NCBI GenBank assembly: GCA_964419335.1 | Contig: CAYQOX010000024.1 | Location: 1,162 to 65,161 of the forward strand | Direction of reading: 5' to 3' | DNA: 64,000 bases | From: an uncultured bacterium | Lineage (GTDB): Bacteria > Hinthialibacterota > Hinthialibacteria > Hinthialibacterales > Hinthialibacteraceae | In this document: positions 1,723 through 52,619 of the stretch, in pieces | How positions within the stretch are numbered: the first letter of the stretch is position 1 | Layout of the letters: every line of letters begins with the position of its first letter | The notes under the pieces: model-generated | What the model was told of the DNA's origin: nothing | Database searches by the model: none | What the model saw: the letters and a program-made list of their open reading frames with translations, nothing else | Made by a program: the position numbers and the translations under genes

Positions 1723-1949
1723 GGTTCATCCTGTATTTGAGTCCTTTTTGATACATTGAAAAGAAAACAGAACATGATTCTAAAGTGAGAACCATGGTTA
1801 TTTTCAATTTACATGAATCGTACCAAAACGCCGAAGGGGCCTGTGTGGAGCGGCTTTCGGAGCAAGCGGCCCTTAAGGCCGCGCGGAGACAAGCGAAACA
1901 CATCCCCAAGGCGTTTTCCCAAAAAAAGGACTCACTTTCGTGATGAGCC
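1723..1949 (+). mobile_element. MITE copy 1 (full length, ~227 bp) flanked by 8-bp TSD TTAATATA (1715-1722 / 1950-1957)
   Basis: Starts ggttcatcctgtatttgagtcc, ends ggactcactttcgtgatgagcc; internal conserved GC-rich core gcggcccttaaggccgcgcgg; identical 8-bp direct repeats on both flanks. Confidence 0.85.
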
Positions 1950-2960
1950 TTAATATATTGCCCATTCACTCACATCCGAGGGAAATTCTCCCCCCGGTAC
2001 GACCGCCATATTGAAGAAAGAACGAAAACTCGCATCCGCCTCCAAACCGGCTTGTTCAAAACCCGATGTGATATCGATAATGCGAGGCCCTGCGTTTAAA
2101 TCCGTAGCATCAAATACCCCAAACTTATTGAGGAGCTCCGGCACATCATGATTCCCCACTACGAAATTCGTGGTTCCCGGGATCTGGGCGATTCCCCATA
2201 TTCCTGTAAATCCGTCTTCCACCGCGTTGTACTCTTCTTCCAATTCACCATCCAGGCTAATTCGTACTAACGTGGATTGATCCCCCAAAGAGGCTACCAC
2301 CGAACCAATTTCATCATTATAAGTCAAAGAACGTACCACCCGGTCATCATTATAAAAGACCCCCGTAGGCTCTCCTCCTTCTTCTTTGTCATACACATGA
2401 ATCCCGGGATTATTTGCATCTCCCATCAACAACCGGCCATCCGGCAGCAACAATGCTTCCCCATGACCGCCTTTAACATAATCGCTCCACTCTGTGATGT
2501 CACCATCTGCAATTTTATAACGCCAGGCAACATCTTGATCATCCACATTACTATTCACGACCACTTCCCCCGGTCCAATCGCGGCCAAATGGGTAATCTT
2601 TATAATATCCGCCATGAATAACTGCTGATTGCCTTCACTATCAATCCGCAACATTTCTCCAATCCCATCGGGATATTCATTCTCTGGATCCGGCTCAAAT
2701 ACTGCCGTAATTCCTACCCAGACTACCCCTTCGGGATCCACATCTAACCCTAAAGCACGCCGACGATCGGTGTCTTCTAAGTCCCAACGAATCACGTTGA
2801 TCACTTCCGCCTCGTTTCCGTCGATGTTCAACTCAACAATTTGACCATCAGGCGAATAAAAAGGATCAGCAAAGATCACATTCCCCGGTTCAAACAGCTG
2901 CGCTTGAACCATCATCGGCGCCAAAAGAAAAGCGAATACCACAAATAATCTCATTCTCAT
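1950..2960 (-). CDS. secreted hypothetical protein (signal peptide MRMRLFVVFAFLLAPMMVQAQ; beta-propeller-like repeats)
   Basis: ORF 1950..3119 trimmed to Met at 2960, which has GGAGG 8 nt upstream; the N-terminal extension MLCFLFNVSKRTQ is translation of MITE copy 2. Confidence 0.6.
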   Translation of the reverse strand: MRMRLFVVFAFLLAPMMVQAQLFEPGNVIFADPFYSPDGQIVELNIDGNEAEVINVIRWDLEDTDRRRALGLDVDPEGVVWVGITAVFEPDPENEYPDGIGEMLRIDSEGNQQLFMADIIKITHLAAIGPGEVVVNSNVDDQDVAWRYKIADGDITEWSDYVKGGHGEALLLPDGRLLMGDANNPGIHVYDKEEGGEPTGVFYNDDRVVRSLTYNDEIGSVVASLGDQSTLVRISLDGELEEEYNAVEDGFTGIWGIAQIPGTTNFVVGNHDVPELLNKFGVFDATDLNAGPRIIDITSGFEQAGLEADASFRSFFNMAVVPGGEFPSDVSEWAIY

Positions 2961-3061
2961 AATACAACCTCCATCTAAAAAAGATTTAATCGATATAATA
3001 AAAAATAATAATAATTCATTCTTTTGTATAGATTTATACAACCCATTTTCCAAAAAAAATG

Positions 3062-3292
3062 AAAAAAGTTCATCCAGTATTTGAGTCCTTTTTGATACAT
3101 TGAAAAGAAAACAGAGCATGCTTCTAAAGTGAGAACCATGGTTATTTTCAATTTACATGAATCGAACCAAAACGCCGAAGGGACTTGTGTAGAACGCTTT
3201 TTGTACCAAGCAACCCTTAAGACCGCGCGGAGACAAGCGGAACTCATCCCCGAGTCGTTTATCTCAAAAAAATACACCCTTGTCGAATAATC
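3062..3292 (+). mobile_element. MITE copy 2 (full length, divergent termini) with 10-bp TSD AAAAAAAATG (3052-3061 / 3293-3302)
   Basis: Same conserved core as other copies; direct repeat AAAAAAAATG on both flanks. Confidence 0.75.
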
Positions 3293-3375: not shown

Positions 3376-4660
3376 ATGACGCTTCTCATCGCGATCACGC
3401 TCTGTTTGATCAACCAGACGCCAAATCAGCTCGATCAAGCCAATCTACACGTACAACAACAAAACTATGAAGCGGCTATAGATATATACCAATCCATTTT
3501 ACAAGAAGATCCCTCTCCGTATCCTGCCCAACTTGGTTTAGGACGAGCCCTAGCCTATTCTGGCCAATGGGAACAAGCCGAAGAACTCTTCACCGATTAT
3601 GTTGGAAAATGAACCGAATGATGTCGATGTATTGTTGCTCCGCGGCCTTGTGCGCTCTTGGCAAAATAAATACGAAGCGTCCGAAAAGGATCTACGCTGC
3701 GTCATCAACCAGACCCCAAACTATACCGACGCCTACTTAGCCTTAGCCAATGTTTATCAATGGACAGAACGCTACGATGAAGCCCTTGACCTCTACCATC
3801 AATACAGCCTACAGCAACCCCAAGATCCAAAACCCCACTTGCAACGTGCCGCCATCTATAAACAGCAAAACCAACCCCAAAAACGAGAAGATGAATTACA
3901 ATTCGCCGAACAAAAAGGAGCCGACCCTGAACAACTCGAGTCATTGCGCCAAACGGAGCCTTTACCTAAAAGTGGCTATTGGGAAGTTCGCTTAGGCTAC
4001 AATTTCCATTCCCTCTCCGATGACTTAAGCGATTGGCACGAATATTCCACCCGCCTGATCCGCGAATTCCCCCACGGCTCCATCGCCCTCGAATGGCTTC
4101 AGCACCATCATTTTTCCGACCGTGATGACGCACTTCAACTCGATACCTACTTCGACCTCTGGCAAGAAGCCTATGGCAACTTCCGCTTTCAAGCCGCCCG
4201 GAATACCGAGTTTCTCGCCAAAACCGATTACCGCCTTGAACTGTTCCAAGGTTTTGCCGAATCATGGGAAACATCACTCAACGCCCGCGTCATGAAATTC
4301 AGCAACAATACCGTCGATATCTATGGCCTCTCCTTGGGAAAATATCTCGGCGATTTCTACCTCCGCGGCAACATTTTCCTCAGCCCCGAATTCAACAATG
4401 AACTCTTCTCCTACGCCCTCTTAGGCCGCTACTACTACACCCCTGACAGTTTCCTTGAACTTTCGGGAGGTTACGGCGAAGAACTGGTTACCGTCGCCGT
4501 TGGCCCTATTCTCGAAAAACGGAACACCGCAACCCTGGGCTTCAAACTTCAACATTATTTTAATGAGAAAATCGGCTTCTCTCTTGGATATGAACTCTTC
4601 GATATAGAATCAACCTGGAGCCGCCATGGCGTATCCTCCACGCTCATGTATCGCTGGTGA
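3376..4660 (+). pseudogene. TPR-repeat plus C-terminal outer-membrane beta-barrel protein (PgaA/BcsC-like), interrupted by +1 frameshift at ~3597-3612
   Basis: ORF 3376..3612 (TPR: AAIDIYQSIL, GLGRALAYSGQWEQAEELF) and ORF 3599..4660 overlap by 14 nt in adjacent frames; TPR continues across the junction; C-terminus ends ...STLMYRW (aromatic terminus typical of OM beta-barrels). Confidence 0.5.
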
Positions 4661-4699
4661 AATAAAATTCCATCATTTGATCAAAAGAAAAAACAAAGT

Positions 4700-6246
4700 A
4701 TGAATACCAGATTCGATGATTTACAAAACTTTTTCCTTCAAGGGCTTCCCAGCAAGATCTATGCTCTTGAATCTATCCAACGTGAACTCTCTCAACCGGG
4801 CACCCAAACCTATGCCTCCATCAGACGCATTGCCCGTGCACTTCGCATCTCGTGCGAGGAATATGGCTTCCCTGACATCTGCAAGAAAGCGCAAGAAGTC
4901 GAAGAAGCCCAAGATCAGCATATGGCCTCTACATTGAATGAACTTTTACAAGTTCTCAACACCTTATCGATTGCTGATGAAAAACAAAAGTTTAAAATTC
5001 TCATCATTGAAGATGCGCCCGATACCGCCCAATTAATCGCTCTCACGCTAAAAGCCCCCTACCGGGAAATCTTCATCGCCGAGACCTGCGAACTTGCCAG
5101 AGAAATCTTGGATGATCACGATGTCTCCTTAATTCTCCTCGATTTGTTCTTACCCGATACCGATGGACGGAACTTGCTCATCGAACTCCGCGAACGCCCT
5201 CGAACCGCCAACGTTCCCATCTTCGTGGTTTCTGCACAAATTGGTACTCAGGCTGAAAGCGAATGCTACGCCTTAGGAGCGGATGAGTTCATTCGCAAAC
5301 CCTTTGATCTAAAAAACCTCGCCAACGCGGTCTCTTCCAAACTTCAACGAGCCGCCGATATCAAACAAAAACCCCAAATGGATAAATTAACCGGCCTCCC
5401 GAGTCGAGCTGGCTTCAAACGTAAATACAATGAAGCCTTGGGGAAGGCTATTCGTACTTCCAACTATTCAGCGTAGGCTTGATCAACTTAGATCGCCACG
5501 AATCTTTCAAAAAGAAATATGGCGATTCCTTTGGCCAGCAATCCATCCTCCTGACCTCCCAAACCTTACAAGAACACCTCGACGAGTCCTGCACTCTCGC
5601 GAGATGGGATGGCGCCGCCTTTGCCGCTCTCTTTCCCGATACCATGCCCGCTCAAGCCCAACAAAGGTTAGTCCAAGCACTCACCTCTCTCCGCCATAAA
5701 CCCATCCAGGTTCCCCAAGGCGACCCGGTCCCCATCACCTTTTCCGCCGGCGTTGTCTTCGTCTCCCAAGGACAATCGATCAAAGATGTCATGGAACAAG
5801 CGGATACCTATTTATTCCATGCAAAAGCCCATGGACGTAACCGCGTCTTCTCCTCTCAAGATGATGTAAAAGCCATCCCTAAAGAAATTCTTTTGCTGGA
5901 AGATGACGAATCAACCGCCATGTTAATTGAACACCGCCTTATGCGTTCTCATTTCGATGTGATGACTTTTTCTGATGGCCGCAGCGCTTACGAGGCGATT
6001 TGCAATGAAAGCGTTTCCTTGGCGATCTTGGATGCCAATGTTCCGGTGATGAGTGGCTTCGAATTGCTTTCCCGCATCCGCAACGTTCCTGCCTATATGG
6101 ATTTACCCATCATCATGCTCACCAGCATGGGCAGTGAAAAAGATATTCAGCGTGGCTTCGATCTTGGCGCCAATGACTACATTCTCAAACCTTTTTCTCC
6201 CACAGAATTAATGGCACGCGTACATCGCTTACTCAAAAATACGTAG
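4700..6246 (+). pseudogene. REC-GGDEF(degenerate)-REC response regulator, frameshifted at ~5455-5476
   Basis: ORF 4700..5476 has a REC domain (KILIIEDAPD...LLDLFLPDTDG) then a GGDEF start (DKLTGLPSRAGFKRKY). The GGDEF continues in the next frame (FSVGLINLDRHESFKKKYGD...ADTYLFHAKAHGRNRV), followed by a second REC (LLLEDDES...DANVPVMSGFELL...DYILKPF). The GGEEF position reads WDGAAF (5605-5622). Confidence 0.55.
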
Positions 6247-6253
6247 AGATATA

Positions 6254-7182
6254 ATGGAACTCTGGCAATCAATGAATTCCTTTTTGGATCCCCTCGTTAA
6301 TCCGTCCTCCCTTCAAGATCGCTTGCTAGGGATCTTGATCTTATCCATCCTTTTTCTCTTATTCTTGTCCCTTTTCTTCACCTTTCTTACTTTTCTCTTC
6401 CGTTTTCGCAATAACCGTCATGAACGAATCCGGAATCAATTACAATCCCGTTGGAAAGAAACCTTGCTGGATGTATTAGCAGGCGATGCTTCCGAAGAAG
6501 AATTGCACAACCAAGTCCAGCCCCAGGATTCTCTCTATTTCATTGATTTTTTATTAAAACATGCGCGCATCCTCCGAGGAGAGGAATACCAACTCATTCA
6601 ACGTCTAGCCAAACCCTATCTTCCGGTTCTCAAACAACGTCTCCATTCCCGCGACGTCGAACGCGATGCCCTGATCCGCGTCGTACGCCCCTTCTTGGAA
6701 AACCAACAAACCGTCGCCGCAGGCGGGATTATTCGCATTGTCAACGATTGTGAAATCAAAGCCGGGATGGTCACCAAGATCAATCTCCCCACAAATCTCC
6801 TCGCACGCTTTCAAGTGCTTGAATATCTTCGCGCCTTCTTAACCGGCCGCGTGGGCTGGTATGCAATTCGCTCCATCATGATCATCTCCGGCGCTTTTGG
6901 CTTATTCAAGCGCTCCGTCGTCGTCGACGCCGGCGGCTATTACACCGATTCGGCATCACCCTCTCTATCGCTGCTGTCGCGCTCGAAGAAATCGCTTTTC
7001 AACGCTATCCCAAGTTTCGTGATTTAATTCAACTCTTTTATCTCGCCGTCCTCGAAAATTTCGGCTACCGCCAATTAAATCAATATTGGCGCTTTAAAGG
7101 CATGCTTTCTAAACTCTTTCGCGTTAAAGGCTGGGGCAAAATGGAACGAAAAGGCTTTTCTACCAAAACTTCTACCCCCTAG
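6254..7182 (+). pseudogene. GT2 glycosyltransferase remnant (PgaC/IcaA/NodC-like C-terminal half), N-terminally divergent and frameshifted at ~6950
   Basis: DALIRVVRPFLENQQTVAAGGIIRIVND...ARFQVLEYLRAF...GAFGLFKRSVVVDAGGYYTDS resembles the distal half of PgaC-type synthases; no DXD/DDGS-type catalytic N-half seen; the reading frame shifts after YYTDS and continues ...WRFKG...KGWGKMERKGF to a stop at 7182. Confidence 0.4.
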
Positions 7183-7331
7183 AATGCTTTTATATTTTGA
7201 CAAGCATAAGGCATCTATGGTAAAAAAGAAGAGAAAATCTACCCTTGAGAGAATTCAACGCCGTAGGCAACCTGTCCTGATCTCTTTTTTAAGGTTGGAT
7301 TTTCTTTCGTGGATTAAATTTGGTTCATCCT

Positions 7332-7519
7332 GTATTTGAGTACTTTTTAATGCCTTGAAAAGAAAACATGACATGATTCGATCGCGAGGCCTCTGTTTTT
7401 CAATCCTAGTGAATCGAACCAAAACACCGAAGGGGCTTGTGTGGAGCGGCTTTTGGAGCAAGCGGAACCCATCCCCAAGGCGTTTTCTCCCAAAAAAGTA
7501 CTCACTTTCGTGATGATCC
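7332..7519 (+). mobile_element. MITE copy 3 (internal ~40-bp deletion of the GC-rich core)
   Basis: Shares both termini and the 5' half with other copies; lacks the gcccttaaggccgcgcggagacaagc segment; flanks TTAAATTT / TTATATTT (1 mismatch). Confidence 0.75.
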
Positions 7520-8920: not shown

Positions 8921-10123
8921 ATGTGGTTTTCCTCCAAACGCTTCTGGCTCTTTGACGATCCTCGTTCTTACGGCGCACGAGCGATGATGCGTGGTGTGGT
9001 GGAGGGATTGAAGGAAAATGGAAAAAATGTGCGCCTCTATTCCTTCAATCCCTCCGAACAAGATGCCGTCTCCAAAATGCGCGAAGATTTACTGCAATTT
9101 AATCCCCATGTGGTTTTCCTCGCCAACCATCCCGCCTCTCTTTTCTTATCCCAATTGGGCTTAAAAAAAGAAAACCTGGATTGTTCCTTTTGGATTTGGC
9201 TCTTTGACGATCCCCTCCTCATGGGCGACGAACCTTTCGATCCCGATGAAATCGTCCTCGCAGCCGACCCGAAATTCATTTCCGGCGCTCGCTCCCGCAG
9301 CGCTAAGAACATCATCTTTCTCCCCGTGGCCGCACCTTCCAACCTCTCCGTGGAATACCGGCAAGAATACGAGGCTCCCCTCGCTTATGTCGGGGCGGTG
9401 ATGGATATCACTTCCATGCGTAATCAAATTCAACCCTTTGTCCGAGATTATCTCGACCGCATTGCCGAAAAACGTCTAGAAAATCTCCAAACCGACTTTA
9501 TACGCCTCGTCGCACAAAATCCCATCGCCGAGGGGAAAGAATTAACCCTCAATGGCCCTTTGCTCTACTACCTCTACGCTCTCACCAATCGCATCTATCG
9601 TATGCAATTCATAAAACAATTGGCTCCCTTGGGCTTAAAACTTTACGGCAATGAGGTGTGGCGCCCTCTGCTAAAAAATGAAAACCTCGAATCCCTCTTC
9701 CAAGGCCCTCTCGATCCCTTCCACGAATACCCCCATCTCTTGGCCTCCGTAAAAATCAACCTCAACTTACGCAGCTTACAAGGGTTTGTCGCCCCCACTC
9801 AGCGCGATTTCCTCATCCCGATGACCGGTGGGTTTATGCTCTCCACTAAGATTCGTCAGGAATATTTCGATTGGCCCCAAGTGGACCAGGATAATGTCTT
9901 CCAATTAGAATCCTTCCCCTGGTCCCCCGAATTCTCCACTCCCGAATTGATGCTGGAAGCCGTTCAAGTTTACCTCCATAAACCTCGCTTTTGCCAAGAA
10001 TGGGTTGACTATGTCCAGCGTCAATTTCACAAAAATCATACCTTCGCCCATCGTATGCAGCAATTGGGTATGATTCTCGATCATCCTAAACATGGAGGTC
10101 TCCCTATCGCCTCCATGCCCTGA
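8921..10123 (+). CDS. CgeB-like / DUF3880 family glycosyltransferase (GT1-like fold)
   Basis: C-terminal region (NLNLRSLQGF...TQRDFLIPMTGGFMLS...) resembles spore-maturation CgeB-family glycosyltransferases; start 3 nt after the sulfatase stop. Confidence 0.55.
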   Translation: MWFSSKRFWLFDDPRSYGARAMMRGVVEGLKENGKNVRLYSFNPSEQDAVSKMREDLLQFNPHVVFLANHPASLFLSQLGLKKENLDCSFWIWLFDDPLLMGDEPFDPDEIVLAADPKFISGARSRSAKNIIFLPVAAPSNLSVEYRQEYEAPLAYVGAVMDITSMRNQIQPFVRDYLDRIAEKRLENLQTDFIRLVAQNPIAEGKELTLNGPLLYYLYALTNRIYRMQFIKQLAPLGLKLYGNEVWRPLLKNENLESLFQGPLDPFHEYPHLLASVKINLNLRSLQGFVAPTQRDFLIPMTGGFMLSTKIRQEYFDWPQVDQDNVFQLESFPWSPEFSTPELMLEAVQVYLHKPRFCQEWVDYVQRQFHKNHTFAHRMQQLGMILDHPKHGGLPIASMP

Positions 10124-10859: not shown

Positions 10860-11084
10860 GCTCATGTAATTTGTCTCTTTTTTGACACATCGAAAAGAAA
10901 GCATGACATAATTCTATAGCAAGACCTATGACTTTTTTAGAACTCAATGAATAGAACCAAAACGCCGAAGGGGCTTGTGTGAAGCGGCTTTCGTAGCAAG
11001 CGGCCCTTAAGGCCGCGCGGAGACAAGCGGAACTCATCCCCGAGGCGTTATCTCCAAAAAAAGTATTCACTTTCGTAGTAAGCC
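10860..11084 (+). mobile_element. MITE copy 4 (full length, 5' terminus divergent)
   Basis: Conserved core gcggcccttaaggccgcgcggagacaagcgg; flanks TCAATTTT / ACTAATTTT; starts immediately after the stop codon of 10195..10848. Confidence 0.75.
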
Positions 11085-14548: not shown

Positions 14549-14554
14549 TTTTTT

Positions 14555-14650
14555 GGTTCATCCTGTATTTGAGTTCTTTTTGATACATTGAAAAGCAAAC
14601 ATGACATGATTCTAAGCGAGACCTTTGACTTTTTTCAGTGCATAAATAAA
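14555..14650 (+). mobile_element. MITE copy 5, 5' fragment only (~95 bp), abutting start codon of response regulator at 14548
   Basis: ggttcatcctgtatttgagttctttttgatacattgaaaagcaaacatgacatgattctaagcgagacc... then unrelated sequence; conserved core and 3' terminus absent. Confidence 0.7.
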
Positions 14651-17342: not shown

Positions 17343-17571
17343 GGTTCATCCTGTTTTTGAGTACTTTTTGATACATTGAAAAGGAAACATGACATGATGC
17401 CATAGCGAGACCTATGACTTTTTTTCAATCCTAATGAATCGAATCAAAACGCCGAAGGAGATTGTGTGAAGCGGCTTTCGGAGCAAGCGGCCCTTAAGGC
17501 CGCGCGAAGACAAGCGGAACACATCCCCCAGGCGTGTGCTCCCAAAAAAGGACTCACTTTCGTGATGATCT
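17343..17571 (+). mobile_element. MITE copy 6 (full length) in the 5' leader of the sigma-54 activator gene
   Basis: Both termini and conserved core present; lies between a TGnTATAAT element and ATG 17593. Confidence 0.8.
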
Positions 17572-18978: not shown

Positions 18979-19145
18979 TAGTATTGCATAATGCGATCCT
19001 CTTTATCCCTATTTACTCTCCTTTTGCAAGTCTGTCTTTTCGCTAATCTCTGTCCCCTCAAACAAAAATGCTTGAATCTATTATTTTTATAAAAGATTGT
19101 TCTCAATTCCCAAATTTGGCACGTTTCCTGTATACCTACCCTAAC

Positions 19146-19550
19146 ATGAAAGTATCAATCCCGGTTTGGAACCATAGGGTATCGCCCGTATTCGATACCG
19201 CCCGGCGTTTATTGGTCTTCACAGATACAGGAGAAGATCAAATTAAACAGGTGGAATACTTAGTCGAAGGACTTGACTTCTTCCACCGGGTCGAATGTCT
19301 CATTCGCATCGAAGTTGATGTGCTTATCTGTGGGGCTATTTCCAAACCTCTGGAAGATGAGATCGTTTCACGCGGGATTCAAGTCATTTCCCAAGTGTGC
19401 GGAAATGTAAACGAGGTATTCGAAGCCTATTGCTCCAAACGTATTTTTACCGATTACTTCTTGATGCCCGGCTGTTGTAAAAAAAGAAGAATTCGCAATC
19501 GGTTTAGAAAAAAGAAAGGAAAGGATCCATTACGTGAAAATCGCTATTAG
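19146..19550 (+). CDS. NifX/NafY-like (dinitrogenase FeMo-cofactor-binding fold, PF02579-type) small protein with basic Cys-containing tail
   Basis: MKVSIPVWNHRVSPVFDTARRLLVFTDTG...LICGAISKPLEDEIVSRGIQVI fits the NifB/NifX-family fold; ORF 19068 trimmed to ATG 19146. Confidence 0.5.
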   Translation: MKVSIPVWNHRVSPVFDTARRLLVFTDTGEDQIKQVEYLVEGLDFFHRVECLIRIEVDVLICGAISKPLEDEIVSRGIQVISQVCGNVNEVFEAYCSKRIFTDYFLMPGCCKKRRIRNRFRKKKGKDPLRENRY

Positions 19551-19896
19551 TTCCCAAGGGAAACACTTGGATAGTCCAATCGATCCTCGATTTGGACGCG
19601 CATCGTACTTCATCATCGTCGACACAGAAACAGACGAATTTACATGCCATGATAATGACCAAAACAAGAATGCCACCCAAGGCGCTGGGATCCAAACCGC
19701 CAGTACTCTCATTGATCTCGGCGTAAAGGCTGTCATTAGCGGCAACCTCGGCCCTAAAGCCTTTTCAACTTTACAAGCAGATAATATCGATATGTACACC
19801 ATGCCAGCCGGTACCGTCAACGAAGCCGTTACGAAATTTAAAACCAGTCAATTAAATTCTGTAAACAAAGCAAGCGTAGAAGGACGTTGGGTATAA
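19534..19896 (+). CDS. NifX/NafY-like (PF02579-type) cofactor-binding protein
   Basis: MKIAISSQGKHLDSPIDPRFGRASYFIIVD...GAGIQTASTLIDLGVKAVISGNLGPKAFSTLQADNI canonical family pattern. Confidence 0.7.
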   Translation: MKIAISSQGKHLDSPIDPRFGRASYFIIVDTETDEFTCHDNDQNKNATQGAGIQTASTLIDLGVKAVISGNLGPKAFSTLQADNIDMYTMPAGTVNEAVTKFKTSQLNSVNKASVEGRWV

Positions 19897-19897
19897 T

Positions 19898-20779
19898 ATG
19901 AAATCTTATCTTGACTGTATACCATGTTTCATGCGCCAAACCTTGGATGCCATTCGCCGCATCACTGACGATGAAAGCATCCAAGAAAGTGTCCTGCGCA
20001 CCATTTTGCTTGAAGCCAGTCAAATGGATCTAAACGAACCGCCGCCCCGCATGGGACAAAAAATTCATCGCCTTATTCGTAAAAAAACCGGAGTTTCTGA
20101 TCCCTACGAAGAAACAAAACGCCAATCCAATCAGGAAGTCCTTTCCCTCTACCAGGGATTACGCTCCATCATCGACGATACAGATGAATCGATCGAACTG
20201 GAAACTGCTTTTCGCTTAGCCATCGCGGGCAACATCATCGATCTCGGCACTAATTCGCATATTCATCGCGCCGATATCCAAAAAGGAATCGATCAGGCTC
20301 TTGTCGATCCTTTTTACTGGGACCATAAAGAAATACTGAAATCCATCAGCCAAGCCCATAGCATTCTCTACATCGCCGATAATGCCGGTGAAATTGTCTT
20401 TGATCGCTTACTGATCGAACGTCTACCCAAAGATAAAATCACGGTCGCCGTACGAGGCTTTCCCGTCTTAAACGATGCCACCCGCTTCGACGCTGAAGAA
20501 ACCGGCTTAACCTCTCTCGTGCATGTGATTGATACCGGCTCCGATGCCCCCGGCATCCTTCTTGAAGAATGCTCAGACGAGTTTTTACACCATTTCAACA
20601 ACGCCGATCTCATCATGGCCAAAGGCCAAGGAAACTATGAAACCTTAAGCGATCTCAACAGAAAAATTCTTTTCATATTGAAAGCCAAATGTCCTGTCAT
20701 CGCTCGGCACATTGGCTGCCAAGTCGGTGACATGATTTTAACCATGAATCGTTCTCCAGCTACGATTCAACAACCATAA
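19898..20779 (+). CDS. DUF89 family protein (ARMT1-like damage-control phosphatase fold, CxxC subfamily)
   Basis: N-terminal LDCIPCFMRQ motif characteristic of subfamily-I DUF89 proteins; length ~290 aa. Confidence 0.55.
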   Translation: MKSYLDCIPCFMRQTLDAIRRITDDESIQESVLRTILLEASQMDLNEPPPRMGQKIHRLIRKKTGVSDPYEETKRQSNQEVLSLYQGLRSIIDDTDESIELETAFRLAIAGNIIDLGTNSHIHRADIQKGIDQALVDPFYWDHKEILKSISQAHSILYIADNAGEIVFDRLLIERLPKDKITVAVRGFPVLNDATRFDAEETGLTSLVHVIDTGSDAPGILLEECSDEFLHHFNNADLIMAKGQGNYETLSDLNRKILFILKAKCPVIARHIGCQVGDMILTMNRSPATIQQP

Positions 20780-20804
20780 AAAGATATCATTCTAAGAAAG
20801 TGAG

Positions 20805-21212
20805 GTGATGATGATGCCAGGAGGAGACAGAAGAGGACCCTTAGGCATGGGACCCATGACCGGTCGTGCCGCAGGTTTCTGCGCAGGCTACTCCGCCCCG
20901 GGTTACATGAACCCGGCCTTCGGTCCTGGCTTTGGCCGCGGCCGTGGCCGGGGTGGTATGTTCGGCGGTGGCCGTGGTTGGCGTAATTGGTATTACGCCA
21001 CCGGCTTAACCGGTTGGCAGCGTGCTATGGCCGGGATGCCGCCCCATGGATACACCCCTCCCGCGGCGGCACCCGCCCAAGCCCCCCCAAATTGGGCTAT
21101 GAGCAAAAACCAAGAACTCGATGAACTCAAAGGCCAGGCGGAATATCTCGAGGACGCTCTGGATGGAGTAAAAAAACGCATCTCAGAATTGGAAAGCGAA
21201 CAAGCAAAATAA
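20805..21212 (+). CDS. DUF5320-like protein with Gly/Arg-rich N-region and C-terminal coiled coil
   Basis: GPMTGRAAGFCAGY...GRGRGRGGMFGGGRGWRNWYYATGLTGWQR matches DUF5320 conserved block; C-terminal ELDELKGQAEYLEDALDGVKKRISELE. Confidence 0.55.
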   Translation: MMMMPGGDRRGPLGMGPMTGRAAGFCAGYSAPGYMNPAFGPGFGRGRGRGGMFGGGRGWRNWYYATGLTGWQRAMAGMPPHGYTPPAAAPAQAPPNWAMSKNQELDELKGQAEYLEDALDGVKKRISELESEQAK

Positions 21213-21282
21213 ACTAACACTATGTTTGGCTAGGGTTCCTCCCATCATCCCATTCACCCTAGCCATTTTTTTGGAGAATACT

Positions 21283-21849
21283 ATGAGTATCGCGATAACT
21301 GCACAACAACCAACTTTAGATTCCGATGTGGATCCTCGCTTTGGCCGCTGCGCCTACCTTCTCATCGTCAATCCTGATAACTTCGAATTCGATGTCATGG
21401 AAAATCCCAATCTCTCCGCTTCCAGCGGCGCCGGGATCCAAACCGCCTCCCTCCTTTCCGAAAAAGGAGTCGATACCGTCATTACCGGCAACTGCGGCCC
21501 CAACGCCCACCAAACCCTCTCCGCTGCTGGGATCAACGTCATTACCGGTGCCGGCGGCCCCATCCGCGCTGTGCTCGAACAGTATCAACTCAATCATTTT
21601 TCTTCCGCCCAGGGCCCCAACGTCGATTCCCATACCGGCATGGCCAATAACGTAAATCCTTCTCCCGACCCAAATTTAAGTACACCGAATACAGGTTTCC
21701 CCGCCTCGGGTATGGGCCGAGGGAAAGGCCAAGGTCGAGGTGCCGGGGGTGGAGGCGGACGCGGCCAAGGCGGCGGCCGTGGTCAGGGACGAGGTCGAGG
21801 CCAAGGCCAAGGCGGTGGTGCTGGCGGCGGCCGTGGACGCAATCGCTGA
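21283..21849 (+). CDS. NifX/NafY-like (PF02579-type) protein with long C-terminal RGG/GRG-repeat tail
   Basis: MSIAITAQQPTLDSDVDPRFGRCAYLLIV...GAGIQTASLLSEKGVDTVITGNCGP; tail GRGKGQGRGAGGGGGRGQGGGRGQGRGRGQGQGGGAGGGRGRNR; GGAGA RBS; ORF 21226 trimmed to ATG 21283. Confidence 0.65.
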   Translation: MSIAITAQQPTLDSDVDPRFGRCAYLLIVNPDNFEFDVMENPNLSASSGAGIQTASLLSEKGVDTVITGNCGPNAHQTLSAAGINVITGAGGPIRAVLEQYQLNHFSSAQGPNVDSHTGMANNVNPSPDPNLSTPNTGFPASGMGRGKGQGRGAGGGGGRGQGGGRGQGRGRGQGQGGGAGGGRGRNR

Positions 21850-21894
21850 TTAATGTATTCTTACTCACGGATCAACCCAAGGGACTTTCGATCG

Positions 21895-22761
21895 ATGAAA
21901 ATATCAATTGCTAGTGGAAAAGGTGGTACCGGCAAAACCACCATCGCGACCAATCTCGCCTTTGCTCTATCCCAACAAGGCCTTCCAACATCCTATGTGG
22001 ATTGCGACGTTGAAGAGCCCAACGGGCACCTCTTTCTCAATCCCACCCGTGAAAGTCGAGAAACCGTGGGCATCACCGTTCCCTCCGTTAATCAAGAACA
22101 GTGCACCTTATGCGGGCTCTGCGGCCACATTTGCGCCTACAGCGCCATCGTTTGCGTTGGACAACAAGTGCTTACTTTCCCTGAATTATGTCATTCGTGC
22201 GGCGGGTGTTGGTTGGTCTGCCCCCAAAAGGCAATCTCAGAATCTTTTCGTCCCATGGGGGTCATCGAATTTGGACACGCAGGCTCCCTTCAATTCACCC
22301 AAGGAGTCTTAAACATTGGTGAAGTCATGCCCACCCCTGTACTCCGTGAATTGAAGAAAAAAGCCCCTCTGACCGAGGTCTCCATCTTTGACGCTCCCCC
22401 CGGGACCTCATGCCCCGTCATTGAAACCATACTCGATTCTGATTATGTCCTCCTTGTCGCCGAACCCACCCCCTTCAGCTTCCACGATTTGAAACTGGCA
22501 ATCGAGATGGTTCGTGAAATAAAATTACCTTTTGGCGTGGTTCTCAACAAAGCCGATGTGGAATACAGCGACTTGCTTGATTATTGCAATCGCATGCAAA
22601 TTCCAATCTTAGCCCAAATTCCACACCAACGCCCTATTGCTGAAGCCTATTCCCGGGGTGAATTACTCTGTTCTATCTTCCCAGAATATACAAAACTGTT
22701 TTTGGATATTTATAAATCAATTGAAACTGAGGTCGGTCAAACAAAGGGTATGACAATATGA
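21895..22761 (+). CDS. MinD/Mrp-superfamily P-loop ATPase with inserted 4Fe-4S ferredoxin domain (COG1149-type)
   Basis: MKISIASGKGGTGKTT deviant Walker A; CTLCGLCGHICAY and CHSCGGCWLVCP cysteine clusters. Confidence 0.75.
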   Translation: MKISIASGKGGTGKTTIATNLAFALSQQGLPTSYVDCDVEEPNGHLFLNPTRESRETVGITVPSVNQEQCTLCGLCGHICAYSAIVCVGQQVLTFPELCHSCGGCWLVCPQKAISESFRPMGVIEFGHAGSLQFTQGVLNIGEVMPTPVLRELKKKAPLTEVSIFDAPPGTSCPVIETILDSDYVLLVAEPTPFSFHDLKLAIEMVREIKLPFGVVLNKADVEYSDLLDYCNRMQIPILAQIPHQRPIAEAYSRGELLCSIFPEYTKLFLDIYKSIETEVGQTKGMTI

Positions 22762-23654
22762 AAGAATTGGTTGTGATCAGTGGTAAAGGTGGAACCGGCA
22801 AAACTTCCATTGCCGCTTCTCTCGCTGCATTAGTACAAAAGGTCGTTATTGCGGATTGTGATGTGGATGCCGCCGATATGCATTTGCTCCTTTCACCACA
22901 AATTCAATTCAAACAAAACTTTTCTGGCGGCTCCATCGCTCGGATTTTACCTGGACATTGCACCGCGTGTGGCAAATGTGAAGAGATCTGCCGCTTCGAT
23001 GCCATTTACTACGACGGCCCAGGTAATGGCATGGTCGACAAAACCTTTCGAATCAATCCTGTCCAATGCGATGGGTGTGGTGTGTGTGCCTGGTTTTGTG
23101 CAGAACATGCCATTGAATTCAAACCAGCCATCAATGGTGAATGGTATCAATCAGAAACCCGCCTTGGATCCATGGTTCATGCCAAATTAGGTGTCGCCGA
23201 AGAAAACTCGGGAAAACTAGTCACCTTAGTTCGTAATGAAGCAAAAAAACTCGCCCAACAGCAGCAAAGCGATTGGCTTCTCATTGATGGTTCTCCCGGC
23301 ATTGGTTGCCCTGTCATCGCTTCCATCACCGATACCGATTTAGTTCTCATTGTCGCCGAGCCCACCCGCAGCGGGATCCATGATTTAGAGCGGGTCGCGA
23401 AACTTACCCATCAACTCAACCTCAAAACCTTTGTTTGCATAAACAAGTGGGATATCAATCCCGAGCTTTCCCAGCAAATCGAAGAAAAAGCCCAAAACGT
23501 ATATTTACATTTTGCCGGCCGCATTCGTTATGATCCTGCATTCGATGCCGCCCAAAGAGAGCAGAGAACCCTCATCGAATTCCAACACAATGGTTCAGCG
23601 GATGATATCAAAAAATTATGGACAAACATAATCAATCATAAGGAGAGCAGATAA
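22758..23654 (+). CDS. MinD/Mrp-superfamily P-loop ATPase with inserted 4Fe-4S ferredoxin domain (paralog)
   Basis: ISGKGGTGKTS; CTACGKCEEICRF and CDGCGVCAWFC clusters; ATGA start/stop overlap with upstream paralog. Confidence 0.75.
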   Translation: MKELVVISGKGGTGKTSIAASLAALVQKVVIADCDVDAADMHLLLSPQIQFKQNFSGGSIARILPGHCTACGKCEEICRFDAIYYDGPGNGMVDKTFRINPVQCDGCGVCAWFCAEHAIEFKPAINGEWYQSETRLGSMVHAKLGVAEENSGKLVTLVRNEAKKLAQQQQSDWLLIDGSPGIGCPVIASITDTDLVLIVAEPTRSGIHDLERVAKLTHQLNLKTFVCINKWDINPELSQQIEEKAQNVYLHFAGRIRYDPAFDAAQREQRTLIEFQHNGSADDIKKLWTNIINHKESR

Positions 23655-28112: not shown

Positions 28113-28340
28113 GGTTCATCCTGGATTTGAGTACTTTTTGATCCATTGAAAAGAAAACAGAACATGATTCTAAAGTGAAAACCATGGTTATTTTCAATGT
28201 ACATGAATCGAACCACAACGCCGAAGGGGCTTGTGTGGAGCGGCTTTCGGAGCAAGCGGCCCTTAAGGCCGCGCGGAGACAAGCGAAACACATCCCCAAG
28301 GCGTTTTCCCCAAAAAAAGTACTCACTTTCGTGATGAGCC
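28113..28340 (+). mobile_element. MITE copy 7 (full length) flanked by 8-bp TSD TTTTTTAT (28105-28112 / 28341-28348)
   Basis: Near-identical to copy 1; perfect direct repeat on both flanks. Confidence 0.85.
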
Positions 28341-30089: not shown

Positions 30090-30127
30090 TTTTCTTGTTC
30101 CTTCGAAGTATTAGATTCTCTTTGTGG

Positions 30128-30167
30128 GGTCATCCTGTATTTGAGTCCTTTTTGATACATTGAAAAC
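30128..30167 (+). mobile_element. MITE copy 8, ~40-bp 5' terminal stub upstream of the start codon (30089) of the minus-strand GH gene
   Basis: ggtcatcctgtatttgagtcctttttgatacattgaaaac then unrelated sequence. Confidence 0.6.
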
Positions 30168-30336
30168 AATACCTTCATATGACTTAGACAATATCCAAAC
30201 ATTAAGATATCTTATAATAATAGTGTATTTTTTCATGAAGGGGGACAGGTCACTTTTTAACCTCTTCTCCACCTAGCCAAACAAAATCAACTCGGGATAT
30301 ACTATCCGAGAAATTCATACGCGAAATTTTCATGGA

Positions 30337-30681
30337 GTGAAGATCTTGTCTGAACGTTTTCAATTTGATATGAATTCATCCTTATACGTTTCAGTCGCCG
30401 GTTCCTTAGATGCGACCTCCTCCGGCGATTTTGAAACGAACCTGATGGGAAAAATCGAAGAAAAAGAAAAACCCATGATTGTCTTAGACCTACAACAATT
30501 GGAGTTTATCAATAGTCTGGGATTAGCATCGATCGTCAAAGTCTGGAAAGAAGTTAGAGCCGATAATGGCTCCTTACGCATTCTCGTAACCGAAAAAATT
30601 GCTAAAATCTTTCAAGTCGCCAATCTTGATACGATTATCGATATGTATGTTTTACGGAGTTTACCCCAAAAATCCTCTTGA
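30337..30681 (+). CDS. STAS-domain protein (anti-sigma-factor antagonist SpoIIAA-like)
   Basis: SLYVSVAGSLDATSSGDFE...MIVLDLQQLEFINSLGLASIVKV...LRILV pattern; GTG start inferred. Confidence 0.6.
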   Translation: MKILSERFQFDMNSSLYVSVAGSLDATSSGDFETNLMGKIEEKEKPMIVLDLQQLEFINSLGLASIVKVWKEVRADNGSLRILVTEKIAKIFQVANLDTIIDMYVLRSLPQKSS

Positions 30682-36816: not shown

Positions 36817-39800
36817 CTATTCAGTTTCAATTACGAATGCTTCCTTCTCATTTTTATGTTTTACATGAATCAATAAAGCCTTATGTTCAGAATCGTATTT
36901 CCACCCATAATCCTGTTCAAAGAGTGAATCTCGTTGCGGTAGGGATGGCTGATTGTTGAGCACACGTTTGGGCGCCTTTTCCATCGGCGCAATCAGAATT
37001 TCCGTAAGCCGGCCTTCTTTCGATTCTACCTTGAAAACAATCTCGCCATCTTTTGCCTTCACGTCATTGATATCTGCATTCGCGCTAATGCGGGTAGCCT
37101 CGGGGGTTCGCTCTTCGACAAACGCCGTGCGAATATTGAAACTGTTTCCCTTTAACGCATGCAGGTTGGTCATGATATTCTCAGGATTGATATACGCACC
37201 GTGCGCGGTGAGAAAGTAATCCCCATAACTATCAGGCAAAGTCCCCACATAGGGGCCTTCGGTCAATAGTTGATACAAGGCGCTGGTGGTAATCCCTTCT
37301 GCCAGTTTACGCCAGTCGTGGCTCTCGTCGAACACCGCGAGTTCCTGTAAAGCATACGCATAAACCAATCCGCACCATTGCACCGGTACCCCGCGCCACG
37401 TGTGGGTAAAGAAAGTCGCCCCAAAAATCGGAATCGTGGCATACATTTGCAAAGGACGCTCTTGGAGATACCACAGATAATGAAACCCAATCCCGGTGCG
37501 CGCCCAATAGCGGGCATAATCGAGGTAGGCCGGCTCCCCGGTAATGCGGTAAGCGTCCAGATTGGCACGCGCGGCCTGAGCGGATACCATAATATCCGCC
37601 GAAGCCAGAGGACACTCCCACCCCTGGGCCCCGCGCGGCACGCTTCTACGGTTAAGCGCTTCCAGGCTCTTTAAACCGGTTTGCGTAGCAACCGGATCGG
37701 CGGTGATGCGGGCCAGGCGCATAAGCCGCATGGCGGTGGGCGAGATGGTGCCCGACACCACCTCGCCTTCTTCGCCCAAGCCTTCTTGCTGTTCCCGATA
37801 GATATGGAATCCCCAGCTGCCATCTTCGTTTTGGTTTTGCTTATGGCGTTGGGCTTCTTCATGCCATGAGGATAGCCAAAAATCACTCACTCCCCAAAAA
37901 AACGCCGGTTCGAAGGTCATCACATGACATCCCGCGCTGTTGCCCAATCCTTTCGCCCCATAGCGATCAAGAATCGTCTCATACACGGTTTGGATTCGGT
38001 TATCCAGTTCCTCGTTGGGCGGAGTTACTGCTAAGAATTGATCCATTTTCAATAACGCCAACATTCCCCCGGATGGATACGGCGACCATCCCACACAGTG
38101 TCCCCAGCCTTTCTCTTCTTCATCCCAACAAGTGGTCATATAGGCTTCGCGGCTCATCTCAATCGATTCTCGGTAGGAGCGTGGCTCTGGCAAAGGGTCA
38201 GGAAGTGACCCTTCATGATAAAACGCATTCCAAGCATCCACCGCATCGTTGGGATCATTGCTTTCTGTTATGTAAATAAAACTTTCAAGCACCATCGCTT
38301 CGTCTTTCTCTAATGCGAAGGGCTTGTAAGCGATTTCCTGATTCTCCCGGACATAATCGGGCACGCTTGGAGCGAATAAGCCCAAGAGATGATTCTCCTG
38401 CTTTTCTAAACGATTAGGAACCGCGAATTTTGGCGAGGGATTATGATAACCTTCCGCCCAAGACGCATTGGGTGGCCACATCATCGAGATCAGCCGGTGA
38501 TCATAAGTCAGCGCCATAAGGGGAATCGTCACTTTATAGGGATGGGGCATATAGTGATCTCGTACTGGCGGATGGGCGGCTTCGGTGCTGGATGAAACCG
38601 CGGCTGTATCAAGATATTCCACCCCGGGAAAGATCGCCAAGTCCTTTTCACGTCCAAAACTTTTTTCCCCGATATAGAGCTCAGGTCCGGAAAAGTGCAA
38701 GACCTCCGCCGGGTGATCGCAGGCAATGGAGGAGTGGATACTCAAGGCCGACTTGGGGGAGTCGTGCCGCACCAGGTCTTGCGAAAAACTCCACGTTCGA
38801 CCATCGCGGTCCTCGATGCGTGAGCGGAGATGATAGGAGCCCTCGGTTTTCTTGTGCAGTTTTGGTGTAATGGGCAGCCATTGCTCGGTCCCATCTTCAC
38901 ACTGCACCACAAGTTTTCCCGCCCGGGGAATCCAAGCCAGATCGTTCCAATCATCCTCTTGTTTGATTTGCAGGCGAATGGGGCCAATTTCATCTTCGAT
39001 GGCATAGAATTGGGCTTGCCAGTCGCGGGCTTCCAGGGTGGCACGGGGTTTATCGAGTTTAGAAATTTGTACTAAGGTTGTGAGCCTTCTCTGCGTTGTT
39101 TCTGCTTTATCTTTTTTGGATTTTTCCTCCCATTCCAATTGCACCGGAAACAGGCCTTCTTCTCGCCCTGGAATCTCCCATCGCAGGGATTGTTCGCTTT
39201 CAGCCTCGAGCGTGATGGTTTTTAATGATTCCTCAACGGAGATTGAGGGAGAAAGAATCTTTAACTCAACGACCCCCTTTGCATCTCCCTGATTTCTAAC
39301 CGTAGCGTTTAATTTGACCGTTTCCCCGAGTGATACGAAAGGAGCCTGGGGATTAAACGGACCCACGTTTATATCCGCTCCTCCAAAGTTGAAAATATGG
39401 AAATGACGCAGGATTACCTCGCCCTGAGTATTCAATGGATCTAACCGCAAGCGCTTGATGGTGCCGTCCCAGCGCTCATGGCTTTTCAGGCGCAAAGTAT
39501 ACGTATGAAACTCTCCATCCACTTCGACCATGAAGCGCTTACTTTGATCTTCTGTGATAGCCGGTGATTGTTCGCTGCTCCAAAACAATTGCGCTTGAGA
39601 GCCTGCCGTGACTTTCATCTCCATTTGGATGACCGAGTATTGATTCGCGGAAAAATCCAGCGGGTTTGTGAGGATGTATGGATCCGATCCCGTACAAACG
39701 ATCTTGATTCCCTGATCGGTATCCGTCAGCGGTTTGACATCATGGGTGGGCTGCCAGTCCGCGGCTTGATTAAGGTTGGCCAATTCTTTTTGTTCAGGAT

Positions 39801-51644: not shown

Positions 51645-51649
51645 GCTTA

Positions 51650-52610: not shown

Positions 52611-52619
52611 AGGTAGAAA

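What the first reader, a model, noticed from the sequence alone, without database searches (positions are those of the whole stretch)
3376..7182. Decayed PNAG/cellulose-type exopolysaccharide locus: three adjacent genes each broken by a frameshift
In order: a TPR plus OM beta-barrel protein (PgaA/BcsC-like export porin) with a +1 shift at ~3600; a REC-GGDEF-REC regulator with a shift at ~5460 and a degenerate active site; and a PgaC/IcaA-like GT2 lacking its N-terminal catalytic half and frameshifted at ~6950. No other genes in the window show frameshifts (the sulfatase at the right end was checked and is continuous). Localized pseudogenisation of a c-di-GMP-controlled EPS synthase/export module is therefore more likely than general sequence error.
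Basis: partly seen in the sequence, partly recalled or inferred. Interest (0 to 1): 0.65.

Follow-up and report, generated by a model that had tools for sequence, protein, structure and literature searches.

The report
Broken exopolysaccharide synthase-export operon remnant
Window 3376-7182 holds the wreck of a four-gene operon that once made and exported a surface polysaccharide; two single-base frameshifts and two deletions killed it recently, which is ordinary gene decay, although the intact operon type seems undescribed.

Summary
Six intact reference operons from other phyla hold a Hpt-REC-GGDEF-REC regulator, an optional REC, a membrane HEAT-repeat protein, a processive GT2 synthase and a TPR + YaiO-type beta-barrel.

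Against five of them the window shows four lesions:
- One extra base near 3598-3610 splits the porin gene.
- One missing base near 5462-5470 splits the regulator inside its GGDEF domain.
- A deletion of about 1.2 kb fuses codon ~128 of the HEAT gene in frame to GT2 codon 177.
- A deletion of about 370 nt removes GT2 codons 275-397 and shifts the frame.

The GT2 remnant therefore lacks the D, DxD, ED and QxxRW motifs. About 47 other ORFs in the window look intact, so the damage is local. The remnant keeps every highly conserved residue and native codon usage, so the decay is recent.

Corrections:
- The porin is YaiO-family, not PgaA/BcsC.
- The synthase is not a PgaC or BcsA equivalog.
- The third ORF starts as a different (HEAT) gene.
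- A degenerate GGDEF also occurs in an intact operon, so it is not evidence of decay.

Reads could not be checked. Side finding: an abundant 227-nt MITE flanks the locus.

The parts
3376..3612 (+). 5' fragment of the TPR + YaiO porin gene (signal-like N-terminus and first TPRs), frame 1. It ends at a TGA created by the frameshift.
   Evidence: TPR Pfam hits. Aligns to residues 1-74/80 of intact 428-434-aa YaiO-family proteins.
3598..3610 (+). Lesion 1: one extra base (+1 shift). The best alignment places it at T3598; the A4 run at 3606-3609 is an alternative site.
   Evidence: Omnitrophota orthologue residues 1-74 map to 3376-3597 and residues 75-428 map to 3599-4657. Any single-base deletion in 3551-3610 restores a 427-aa ORF.
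3599..4660 (+). 3' fragment of the porin gene: remaining TPRs plus the YaiO-type beta-barrel, frame 2. It has no signal peptide of its own.
   Evidence: PF19413 at 91.3 bits and TIGR04390 at 118.8 bits. The AF2 model of orthologue P0122 has 11 helices and 14 strands.
4700..5476 (+). 5' fragment of the regulator: Hpt-like domain (phospho-His replaced, H46R), REC1 and the first ~30 residues of GGDEF, frame 2.
   Evidence: Response_reg hit. Aligns to residues 1-255 of intact 507-530-aa regulators.
5462..5470 (+). Lesion 2: one missing base (-1 shift) inside the GGDEF domain, probably in the TATTC stretch.
   Evidence: The frame-2 match ends and the frame-1 match starts at 5446-5467 in four references. 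A single-base insertion in 5431-5475 restores a 515-aa ORF. The AIRTSN / FSVGLINLD alignment places it after 5464.
5461..6246 (+). 3' fragment of the regulator: rest of GGDEF (motif DGAAF, I-site DESC) and REC2, frame 1. The listed ORF starts at TTG 5479.
   Evidence: GGDEF profile positions 37-161 at 68.2 bits and Response_reg at 90 bits; alignment A1.
6254..6661 (+). 5' remnant of the membrane HEAT-repeat gene (TM helix plus about the first 128 codons of ~350-370).
   Evidence: tblastn with five HEAT orthologues matches 6410-6670 to their residues ~38-128; alignment.
6656..6670 (+). Lesion 3: junction of a deletion of about 1.2 kb (HEAT codons ~129-end plus GT2 codons 1-176), in frame. The five codons VERDA fit both parents.
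   Evidence: The HEAT match runs to 6670 and the GT2 match starts at 6656. HEAT orthologues read GDVEQRARA and GT2 orthologues read LLERDALIR.
6662..6948 (+). GT2 remnant A: codons 177-274 of a ~473-codon processive synthase, 64-74% identical to orthologues.
6946..6952 (+). Lesion 4: junction of a deletion of about 370 nt (GT2 codons 275-397, including the ED and QxxRW motifs and several TM helices), with a frame change.
   Evidence: GT2 residues 177-274 end at 6949 in frame 2 and residues 398-473 start at 6949 in frame 1, in all five references. Deleted motif positions E283/D284 and Q326/R327/R329/W330.
6949..7182 (+). GT2 remnant B: codons 398-473 (last TM helices and the conserved GWGKMERKGF tail) plus the original stop, frame 1. 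Not translatable from the upstream ORF.

Best explanation
This is a recently inactivated copy of a conserved four-gene, synthase-dependent exopolysaccharide operon.

The intact form, seen in Electryonea, Planctomycetes, Fidelibacterota, Omnitrophota and other MAGs, encodes:
- a PleD-like Hpt-REC-GGDEF-REC response regulator, usually with an intact GGEEF diguanylate cyclase site;
- sometimes a single-domain REC;
- a membrane-anchored HEAT-repeat protein;
- a membrane-embedded processive GT2 of the hyaluronan/cellulose/chitin synthase fold, which polymerises and translocates a glycan;
- an outer-membrane TPR + 14-stranded YaiO-type beta-barrel, built like BcsC and PelB.

Inferred working of the intact system: phosphorelay, then c-di-GMP synthesis, then activation of the synthase (possibly through the HEAT partner), then export through the TPR-barrel.

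In this window the system is dead. The synthase has lost codons 1-176 and 275-397, and with them all catalytic motifs. The HEAT gene is truncated and fused to the synthase remnant. The porin gene is split just after its N-terminus, so the barrel part has no export signal. The regulator is split inside the GGDEF fold.

The lesions are shown by the sequence. That they are real in the organism, and not assembly artefacts, is inferred. That they are recent is inferred from the lack of further damage.
For: - Collinearity and breakpoints: five of the six intact operons were used as tblastn references and give the same breakpoints.
- Repair test: a single-base repair restores ORFs of 427 and 515 aa.
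- Missing motifs: family-invariant D98, D172/D174, E283/D284 and Q326/R327/R329/W330 all lie in the deleted parts.
- Folds: the GT2 model has pLDDT 86.5, with top PDB matches hyaluronan synthase, BcsA and chitin synthase. The TPR-YaiO model has pLDDT 82, with best full-length matches BcsC 9b8a and PelBC 9h80.
- Locality: about 47 other ORFs have full domain coverage and there is no other frame break.
- Recency: the GT2 remnant differs at 0 of 67 columns that are at least 95% conserved in 110 homologues. Fragment codon-usage scores are 0.21-0.27, against a genome mean of 0.18. After repair there are no extra stops.
- Neither single-base site lies in a long homopolymer or simple repeat. The longest run is A4.
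Against: - Reads are not available, so the two single-base indels cannot be verified. Site 1 could lie in an A4 run.
- The source is probably a MAG: CysS is 70-72% identical to Omnitrophota MAG proteins. Strain mixtures could therefore shape the consensus.
- No close relative carrying the locus was found, so the ancestral state in this lineage is inferred from distant operons at 32-50% identity.
- The near-perfect state of the remnants is also what sequencing errors would give for the two single-base sites.
- The biochemical roles of the intact operon are inferred from homology and fold only.
Confidence: 0.85

Rival explanations
1. Assembly or sequencing artefact. The two single-base frameshifts are consensus errors, so the porin and regulator genes are intact in the organism, and possibly the deletions are misassemblies too.
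For: No reads could be examined. After a one-base repair both genes are perfectly open, at 427 and 515 aa. Site 1 may fall in an A4 run. The source is probably a MAG.
Against: About 60 kb of flanking sequence shows no other frame break, so the error rate is too low to put two errors into 2.8 kb next to a gene with two deletions. The deletion junctions share at most ~15 nt with both parents, too little for a k-mer collapse. No repeat in the locus spans them. Even if genes 1 and 2 were intact, the synthase would still be dead.
Confidence: 0.08
2. Functional remodelling rather than decay. The fragments are expressed and have new roles: a stand-alone Hpt-REC protein, a REC-containing C-terminal fragment, and a 257-aa TM HEAT::GT2 chimera.
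For: The ~1.2-kb deletion is in frame and leaves a 257-aa ORF with a TM helix. The remnants keep conserved residues and good codon usage. The regulator had already lost its Hpt His, A-site and I-site, which hints at an earlier change of role. An intact operon (L014) also carries a degenerate GGDEF.
Against: The barrel fragment lacks a signal peptide. The GGDEF fold is cut in two, and the second half has only a TTG start at 5479. The chimera retains no complete domain (no Pfam GT2 hit). No second genome shows the same arrangement.
Confidence: 0.05
3. Programmed frameshifting or phase variation switches the porin and regulator genes on and off.
For: Surface polysaccharide loci are often phase-variable (general knowledge). 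Site 1 reads GGA AAA TGA A, with a stop right after an A-run.
Against: There is no homopolymer of 5 or more and no simple repeat at either site. Site 2 has no X XXY YYZ slippery heptamer. All six intact operons encode single unbroken ORFs. Switching would be pointless with the synthase deleted.
Confidence: 0.02

Closest known systems
PgaABCD (PNAG) system of E. coli and relatives
   Same: Synthase-dependent logic: an inner-membrane processive GT2, an outer-membrane TPR + beta-barrel exporter, and a link to c-di-GMP. The best NCBIfam hit of the intact GT2 is PgaC_IcaA.
   Different: The GT2 scores 134.5 bits against a cut-off of 422.3. The porin scores 22-24 bits against the PgaA cut-off of 366.65. 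No PgaB deacetylase or PgaD is present. A HEAT-repeat membrane protein and a dedicated Hpt-REC-GGDEF-REC regulator are present instead.
Bacterial cellulose synthase BcsA/BcsB/BcsC
   Same: BcsA is the closest solved relative by sequence (E 3e-7) and among the best by fold. BcsC is the best full-length fold match of the TPR-barrel protein.
   Different: There is no PilZ domain and no BcsB. CelA scores 46 bits against a cut-off of 699. The barrel is a YaiO-type domain of about 230 residues, modelled with 14 strands and about 5.5 TPRs. BcsC has a 16-stranded barrel and a long TPR array (BcsC figures from my knowledge).
E. coli yaiS-yaiP-yaiX-yaiO cluster (namesake of the YaiO family)
   Same: A YaiO outer-membrane barrel encoded next to a GT2 (YaiP). 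In K-12 that cluster is also decayed: yaiX is interrupted by IS2. YaiP aligns with the GT2 family at 25% identity.
   Different: E. coli YaiO has no TPR domain and shows no significant pairwise similarity to the window's barrel; the link is only through the family profile. YaiP is shorter. A deacetylase and an acyltransferase stand in place of the HEAT protein and the regulator.
NfrA/NfrB/DgcJ exopolysaccharide system of E. coli (phage N4 receptor)
   Same: From my knowledge: a c-di-GMP-activated GT2 synthase, an outer-membrane TPR + barrel protein and a dedicated diguanylate cyclase. A weak TPR hit to the NfrA model PRK09782 was seen.
   Different: NfrB carries a C-terminal MshEN c-di-GMP-binding domain and NfrA is much larger (my knowledge). 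No family-level match was found here (20 bits against a cut-off of 1223).
PleD-type response-regulator diguanylate cyclases
   Same: The intact orthologue's best NCBIfam hit is the PleD family (279.5 bits, below the 474 cut-off). It has REC + GGDEF with GGEEF and an RxxD I-site.
   Different: The domain order is Hpt-like-REC-GGDEF-REC. The window's copy has DGAAF, DESC and H46R, and is frameshifted.

Membership tests
Pga (PNAG) system | GT2 is a PgaC/IcaA equivalog (TIGR03937, cut-off 422.3 bits) | tested here: not met
   The intact orthologue scores 134.5 bits. The window remnant has no hit to this model.
Pga (PNAG) system | Porin is PgaA (TIGR03939, cut-off 366.65 bits) | tested here: not met
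   22.7 bits for the window and 24.3 bits for the orthologue, in the TPR part only.
Pga (PNAG) system | PgaB deacetylase and PgaD present in the operon | tested here: not met
   No such genes in the window locus or in six intact operons.
Bcs cellulose synthase system | BcsA with a C-terminal PilZ domain (TIGR03030/PRK11498) and a BcsB partner | tested here: not met
   46.1 bits against 699.1 and 28.5 bits against 992. No PilZ or BcsB in any of the loci.
Membrane-embedded processive GT2 synthases (HAS/BcsA/Chs fold) | GT-A domain with D, DxD, ED and QxxRW motifs joined to a TM channel | tested here: not met
   Met in the intact orthologues: invariant D98, D172/D174, E283/D284 and Q326/R327/R329/W330, with fold matches at E 1e-17 to 1e-11. 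Not met in the window copy: only codons 177-274 and 398-473 remain and all four motifs are deleted.
YaiO outer-membrane beta-barrel family (PF19413 / TIGR04390) | Match above the curated cut-off over the whole domain | tested here: met
   PF19413 at 91.3 bits (cut-off 23.9). TIGR04390 at 118.8 bits (cut-off 32) over profile positions 1-230.
Active GGDEF diguanylate cyclase | GG[DE]EF A-site and metal/GTP-binding residues; RxxD I-site for feedback | tested here: not met
   The domain is recognised (68.2 bits), but the motif is DGAAF, the I-site is DESC, and DxD/N positions are replaced. Orthologues have GGEEF and R(Q/K)SD, except L014 with SGRVF.
Pseudogene (decayed operon) | ORFs disrupted relative to several intact orthologues, with loss of essential parts | tested here: met
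   Four lesions mapped against five intact operons.
Pseudogene (decayed operon) | Lesions verified in raw reads or an independent assembly | not testable with these tools
   The window's ORFs occur once in the protein collection, on a single NCBI contig of 67,881 nt. No second copy of the locus was found.

The most novel reading that the evidence does not exclude
The intact counterpart is a distinct, widespread and so far undescribed synthase-dependent exopolysaccharide secretion system. It comprises a Hpt-REC-GGDEF-REC regulator, an optional REC, a TM-HEAT protein, a GT2 synthase and a TPR + 14-stranded YaiO barrel. The HEAT protein would be a new kind of synthase partner or c-di-GMP coupler, and the small YaiO barrel a new kind of glycan porin. 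The window would then be a natural knock-out of that system in an Omnitrophota-like lineage that is also being colonised by a MITE.
Probability: 0.45. Interest if true: 0.5.

Novelty: new variant of a known kind. Interest (0 to 1): 0.3.

Why it matters
The decay itself is ordinary. It matters in three practical ways.

1. The source record lists the 353-aa and 257-aa fragments as proteins. They are gene fragments and should not be used to infer that this organism makes or exports this polymer.

2. The comparison brought out a conserved operon (regulator, HEAT, GT2, TPR-YaiO) found in several phyla. I found no description of it in the searchable literature. It gives the YaiO family a likely role as a polysaccharide exporter.

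3. Recent loss of a surface-polymer system in a genome dense with a mobile MITE fits a lineage under relaxed selection or a change of lifestyle. This could be tested with more genomes.

Tried and rejected
- Exact look-ups of the window's ORFs and of P0001 found no other contig. P0001, P0121 and P0152 turned out to be the window's own proteins.
- The single genome-contig scan and the single metagenome-contig scan, both with the repaired regulator, returned only distant REC/GGDEF proteins. Neither returned the source genome or a close relative.
- The synteny test through CysS found the two closest MAGs (70-72% identity). They share at most the 3-keto-disaccharide-hydrolase/CysS pair and have no EPS module within 10 kb. 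The intact allele of this lineage was therefore not found.
- Other candidate frameshifts were rejected. The pairs 19068/19534, 43095/44555, 53834/55594 and 59873/61001 each hold complete domains. ORF 30337-30681 looks like a separate small gene (STAS-like by eye, not scanned) and ORF 62187-62510 a TM/coiled-coil gene. The right-end sulfatase is continuous in one frame.
- Rfam and tRNA scans of the window were empty.
- The relative-rate count was inconclusive. The porin has 17 private changes at otherwise invariant columns, against 6-10 in orthologues. The regulator (25 against 10-24) and the HEAT remnant (4 against 1-5) are within range.
- The 389-aa ORF 1950-3119 has no link to the module.
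- The repeats that flank the locus were considered as ends of an island or composite transposon. I rejected this as specific to the locus, because the same element sits in about half of the long intergenic gaps of the window.
Full report
**Observation**

The + strand of 3376-7182 carries five consecutive ORFs in changing frames:
- 3376-3612, frame 1
- 3599-4660, frame 2
- 4700-5476, frame 2
- 5479-6246, frame 1
- 6254-7027, frame 2, followed by an open frame-1 stretch from 6949 to the stop at 7182

Pfam gives the following:
- ORF 1: TPR.
- ORF 2: TPR plus the YaiO beta-barrel domain (PF19413, 91 bits).
- ORF 3: a REC domain.
- ORF 4: GGDEF profile positions 37-161 plus a second REC.
- ORF 5: nothing significant.

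**What the intact thing looks like**

A search with the repaired porin found one full-length homologue, P0122, a YaiO-family protein of Candidatus Electryonea clarkiae. It is 32% identical and aligns without a gap across the join. Its contigs carry a GT2 (469 aa), a HEAT-repeat protein (350 aa), a REC (124 aa), a Hpt-REC-GGDEF-REC regulator (519 aa) and an Hpt protein.

GT2 homologues on long contigs show the same neighbours, in the order regulator, optional REC, HEAT, GT2, TPR-YaiO. These come from a Planctomycetes MAG, a Fidelibacterota chromosome, an unnamed MAG (L014/L015) and an Omnitrophota MAG. This is therefore a conserved operon. In the window the porin gene lies first.

**Mapping the lesions**

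tblastn of the proteins of five intact operons against the window gives the same picture each time.

- Porin. Residues 1-74/80 match 3376-3597/3603 in frame 1 and the next residue onward matches from 3599 in frame 2. This is one extra base.
- Regulator. Residues 1-249/255 match up to 5446-5461 in frame 2 and residues 253-256 onward match from 5455-5467 in frame 1. This is one missing base. The local alignment (AIRTSN, then FSVGLINLD) places it after 5464.
- Repair test. A one-base repair restores uninterrupted ORFs of 427 and 515 aa. The longest homopolymer near either site is four bases.
- HEAT gene. Residues ~38-128 match 6410-6670.
- GT2. Residues 177-274 match 6656-6949 in the same frame as the HEAT remnant. 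Residues 398-473 match 6949-7176 in another frame.

So one deletion of about 1.2 kb removed the rest of the HEAT gene and GT2 codons 1-176 and made an in-frame fusion. The five codons VERDA at 6656-6670 fit both parents, which is consistent with a microhomology-mediated deletion; this is an inference. A second deletion of about 370 nt removed GT2 codons 275-397 and shifted the frame.

In an alignment of 36 homologues the invariant D98, D172/D174, E283/D284 and Q326/R327/R329/W330 all fall in the deleted parts (sequences).

**Function of the intact parts**

- GT2. An AF2 model of the Omnitrophota GT2 P0014 (pLDDT 86.5) is most similar to hyaluronan synthases, BcsA and chitin synthases. These are membrane-embedded enzymes that polymerise and translocate a glycan. 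By sequence the nearest solved protein is BcsA, at E 3e-7.
- Porin. The model of the Electryonea TPR-YaiO protein (pLDDT 82) has 11 helices followed by 14 strands. Its best full-length fold matches are BcsC and PelBC, both polysaccharide exporters, although with low TM-scores.
- Curated models. They reject membership of Pga and Bcs: PgaC 134.5 against 422.3, PgaA 22.7 against 366.65, CelA 46 against 699. They confirm the YaiO family: TIGR04390 at 118.8 against 32.
- Regulator. The regulators of Electryonea, the Planctomycetes MAG and Fidelibacterota have GGEEF and an RxxD site. The L014 regulator has SGRVF within an otherwise intact operon. The window has DGAAF and DESC, and has also lost the Hpt histidine (H46R).

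The working model of the intact system is: phosphorelay, then c-di-GMP, then synthase, then TPR-barrel. This is inferred from these homologies and is not demonstrated.

**Is the damage local and real?**

- Every suspicious same-strand ORF pair elsewhere holds complete domains.
- Thirty further ORFs scanned show essentially full profile coverage wherever a Pfam family matched (five matched none). They include CysS, DnaA, two sulfatases and asparagine synthase.
- A codon-usage scan found no orphan coding stretch other than separate small genes.
- The right-end sulfatase is continuous.

With no other break in about 60 kb, two random consensus errors falling in the 2.8 kb next to a doubly deleted gene is very unlikely; this is an inference. 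No repeat within the locus could explain the deletions as assembly collapses. Reads could not be examined.

**Age**

- The GT2 remnant differs at none of 67 columns that are at least 95% conserved in 110 homologues. It differs at two of 79 columns that are at least 90% conserved, and both changes are conservative.
- The fragments score 0.21-0.27 per codon on the window's own codon model, against a gene mean of 0.18.
- The repaired genes have no further stops.

I infer that constraint was lost recently, at roughly under 2% neutral divergence. The porin shows about twice as many private changes at otherwise invariant columns as its orthologues (17 against 6-10). The regulator and the HEAT remnant are within range. 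This is weak and confounded by branch length.

**Origin of the window**

CysS is 70-72% identical to proteins of Candidatus Omnitrophota MAGs. The sulfatases, pectic acid lyase, 3-keto-disaccharide hydrolase and GFO/IDH/MocA genes seem to me typical of PVC-group bacteria (my own impression, not tested). The two closest MAGs have no such operon near CysS. Neither collection scan found a close relative of the locus.

**Comparison with known systems and novelty**

The system works like the Pga, Bcs, Pel and Nfr synthase-dependent systems, but it fails the membership tests for Pga and Bcs.

The namesake E. coli yaiO sits in a yaiS-yaiP(GT2)-yaiX-yaiO cluster that is itself broken by IS2 in K-12. 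YaiP is 25% identical to this GT2 family.

Full-text searches for YaiO with glycosyltransferase, for the family accessions, and for HEAT/GT2/GGDEF combinations found nothing relevant.

The pseudogenisation is ordinary. The operon type is a variant of a known kind that appears to be undescribed.

**Side findings**

- A 227-nt element has terminal inverted repeats (GGTTCATCCTGTATTTGAGT...) and 8-9-bp AT-rich target duplications. It occurs seven times in full and twice in part in the window. Two copies bracket the dead operon. It has no Rfam match and no copy in the relatives' loci.
- dnaA, DnaA boxes and the GC-skew turn place oriC at about 51.6-52.6 kb.

Noticed in passing
window 1723-1949, 3067-3290, 7322-7519, 10869-11076, 17343-17571, 28113-28340 (all +), 57551-57777 (-); partial copies at 14552-14637 and 30127-30172: An abundant intergenic repeat of about 227 nt, with 20-27-nt terminal inverted repeats (GGTTCATCCTGTATTTGAGT...ACTCACTTTCGTGATGAGCC). 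Target-site duplications are exact at three copies (8, 8 and 9 bp, AT-rich) and 8 bp with one mismatch at a fourth. This is a MITE. Copies are 70-89% identical. They fill about half of the long intergenic gaps, roughly one per 7 kb. Two copies bracket the dead operon. There is no Rfam hit and no copy in loci of the nearest MAGs. All six full copies left of the putative origin are in + orientation and the one to its right is in - orientation.
   Followed up: partly
window 50232-52619: dnaA (50232-51644, minus strand, full-length domains) is preceded by a 975-nt non-coding region. That region holds two perfect DnaA boxes (51921, 52469) and two near-perfect ones (51901, 51933). GC skew changes sign at about 45-50 kb. 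The chromosomal replication origin is probably in this window.
   Followed up: partly
L007-L009, L011-L015, L024 (related loci): A conserved operon: Hpt-REC-GGDEF-REC regulator, optional REC, TM-HEAT protein, GT2 synthase, TPR + YaiO barrel. It occurs in Electryonea, Planctomycetes, Fidelibacterota, Omnitrophota and other MAGs, often next to Hpt proteins or sensor kinases. I found no description of it in the searchable literature.
   Followed up: partly
L025 (E. coli K-12 NC_000913.3 380069-384616): The namesake yaiO lies in a yaiS (deacetylase), yaiP (GT2), yaiX (acyltransferase, split by IS2), yaiO cluster. This looks like a small and likewise decayed polysaccharide locus.
   Followed up: partly
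window 19068-23654: A co-directional cluster of three Nitro_FeMo-Co-family (PF02579) genes, an ARMT1-like phosphatase, DUF5320 and two CbiA/ParA-type P-loop proteins with 4Fe-4S motifs. Its function was not examined.
   Followed up: no
window 8921-10123, 53834-55666, 55594-57519: Three proteins with a C-terminal Glyco_trans_1_2 domain. Two of them are tandem paralogues of 610 and 641 aa with long N-terminal regions of unknown function.
   Followed up: no
window 36817-39885 (-), 43095-44615 (-), 1950-3119 (-): Large ORFs of 1022, 506 and 389 aa with no Pfam match. The 389-aa ORF also has no NCBIfam match and is itself bracketed by two MITE copies that are 89% identical.
   Followed up: no
window 3599-4660 and 6254-7027: The protein collection holds the 353-aa porin fragment and the 257-aa HEAT::GT2 chimera as ordinary NCBI proteins (P0121, P0001) from a 67,881-nt contig. 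The source annotation therefore treats these pseudogene pieces as genes.
   Followed up: yes
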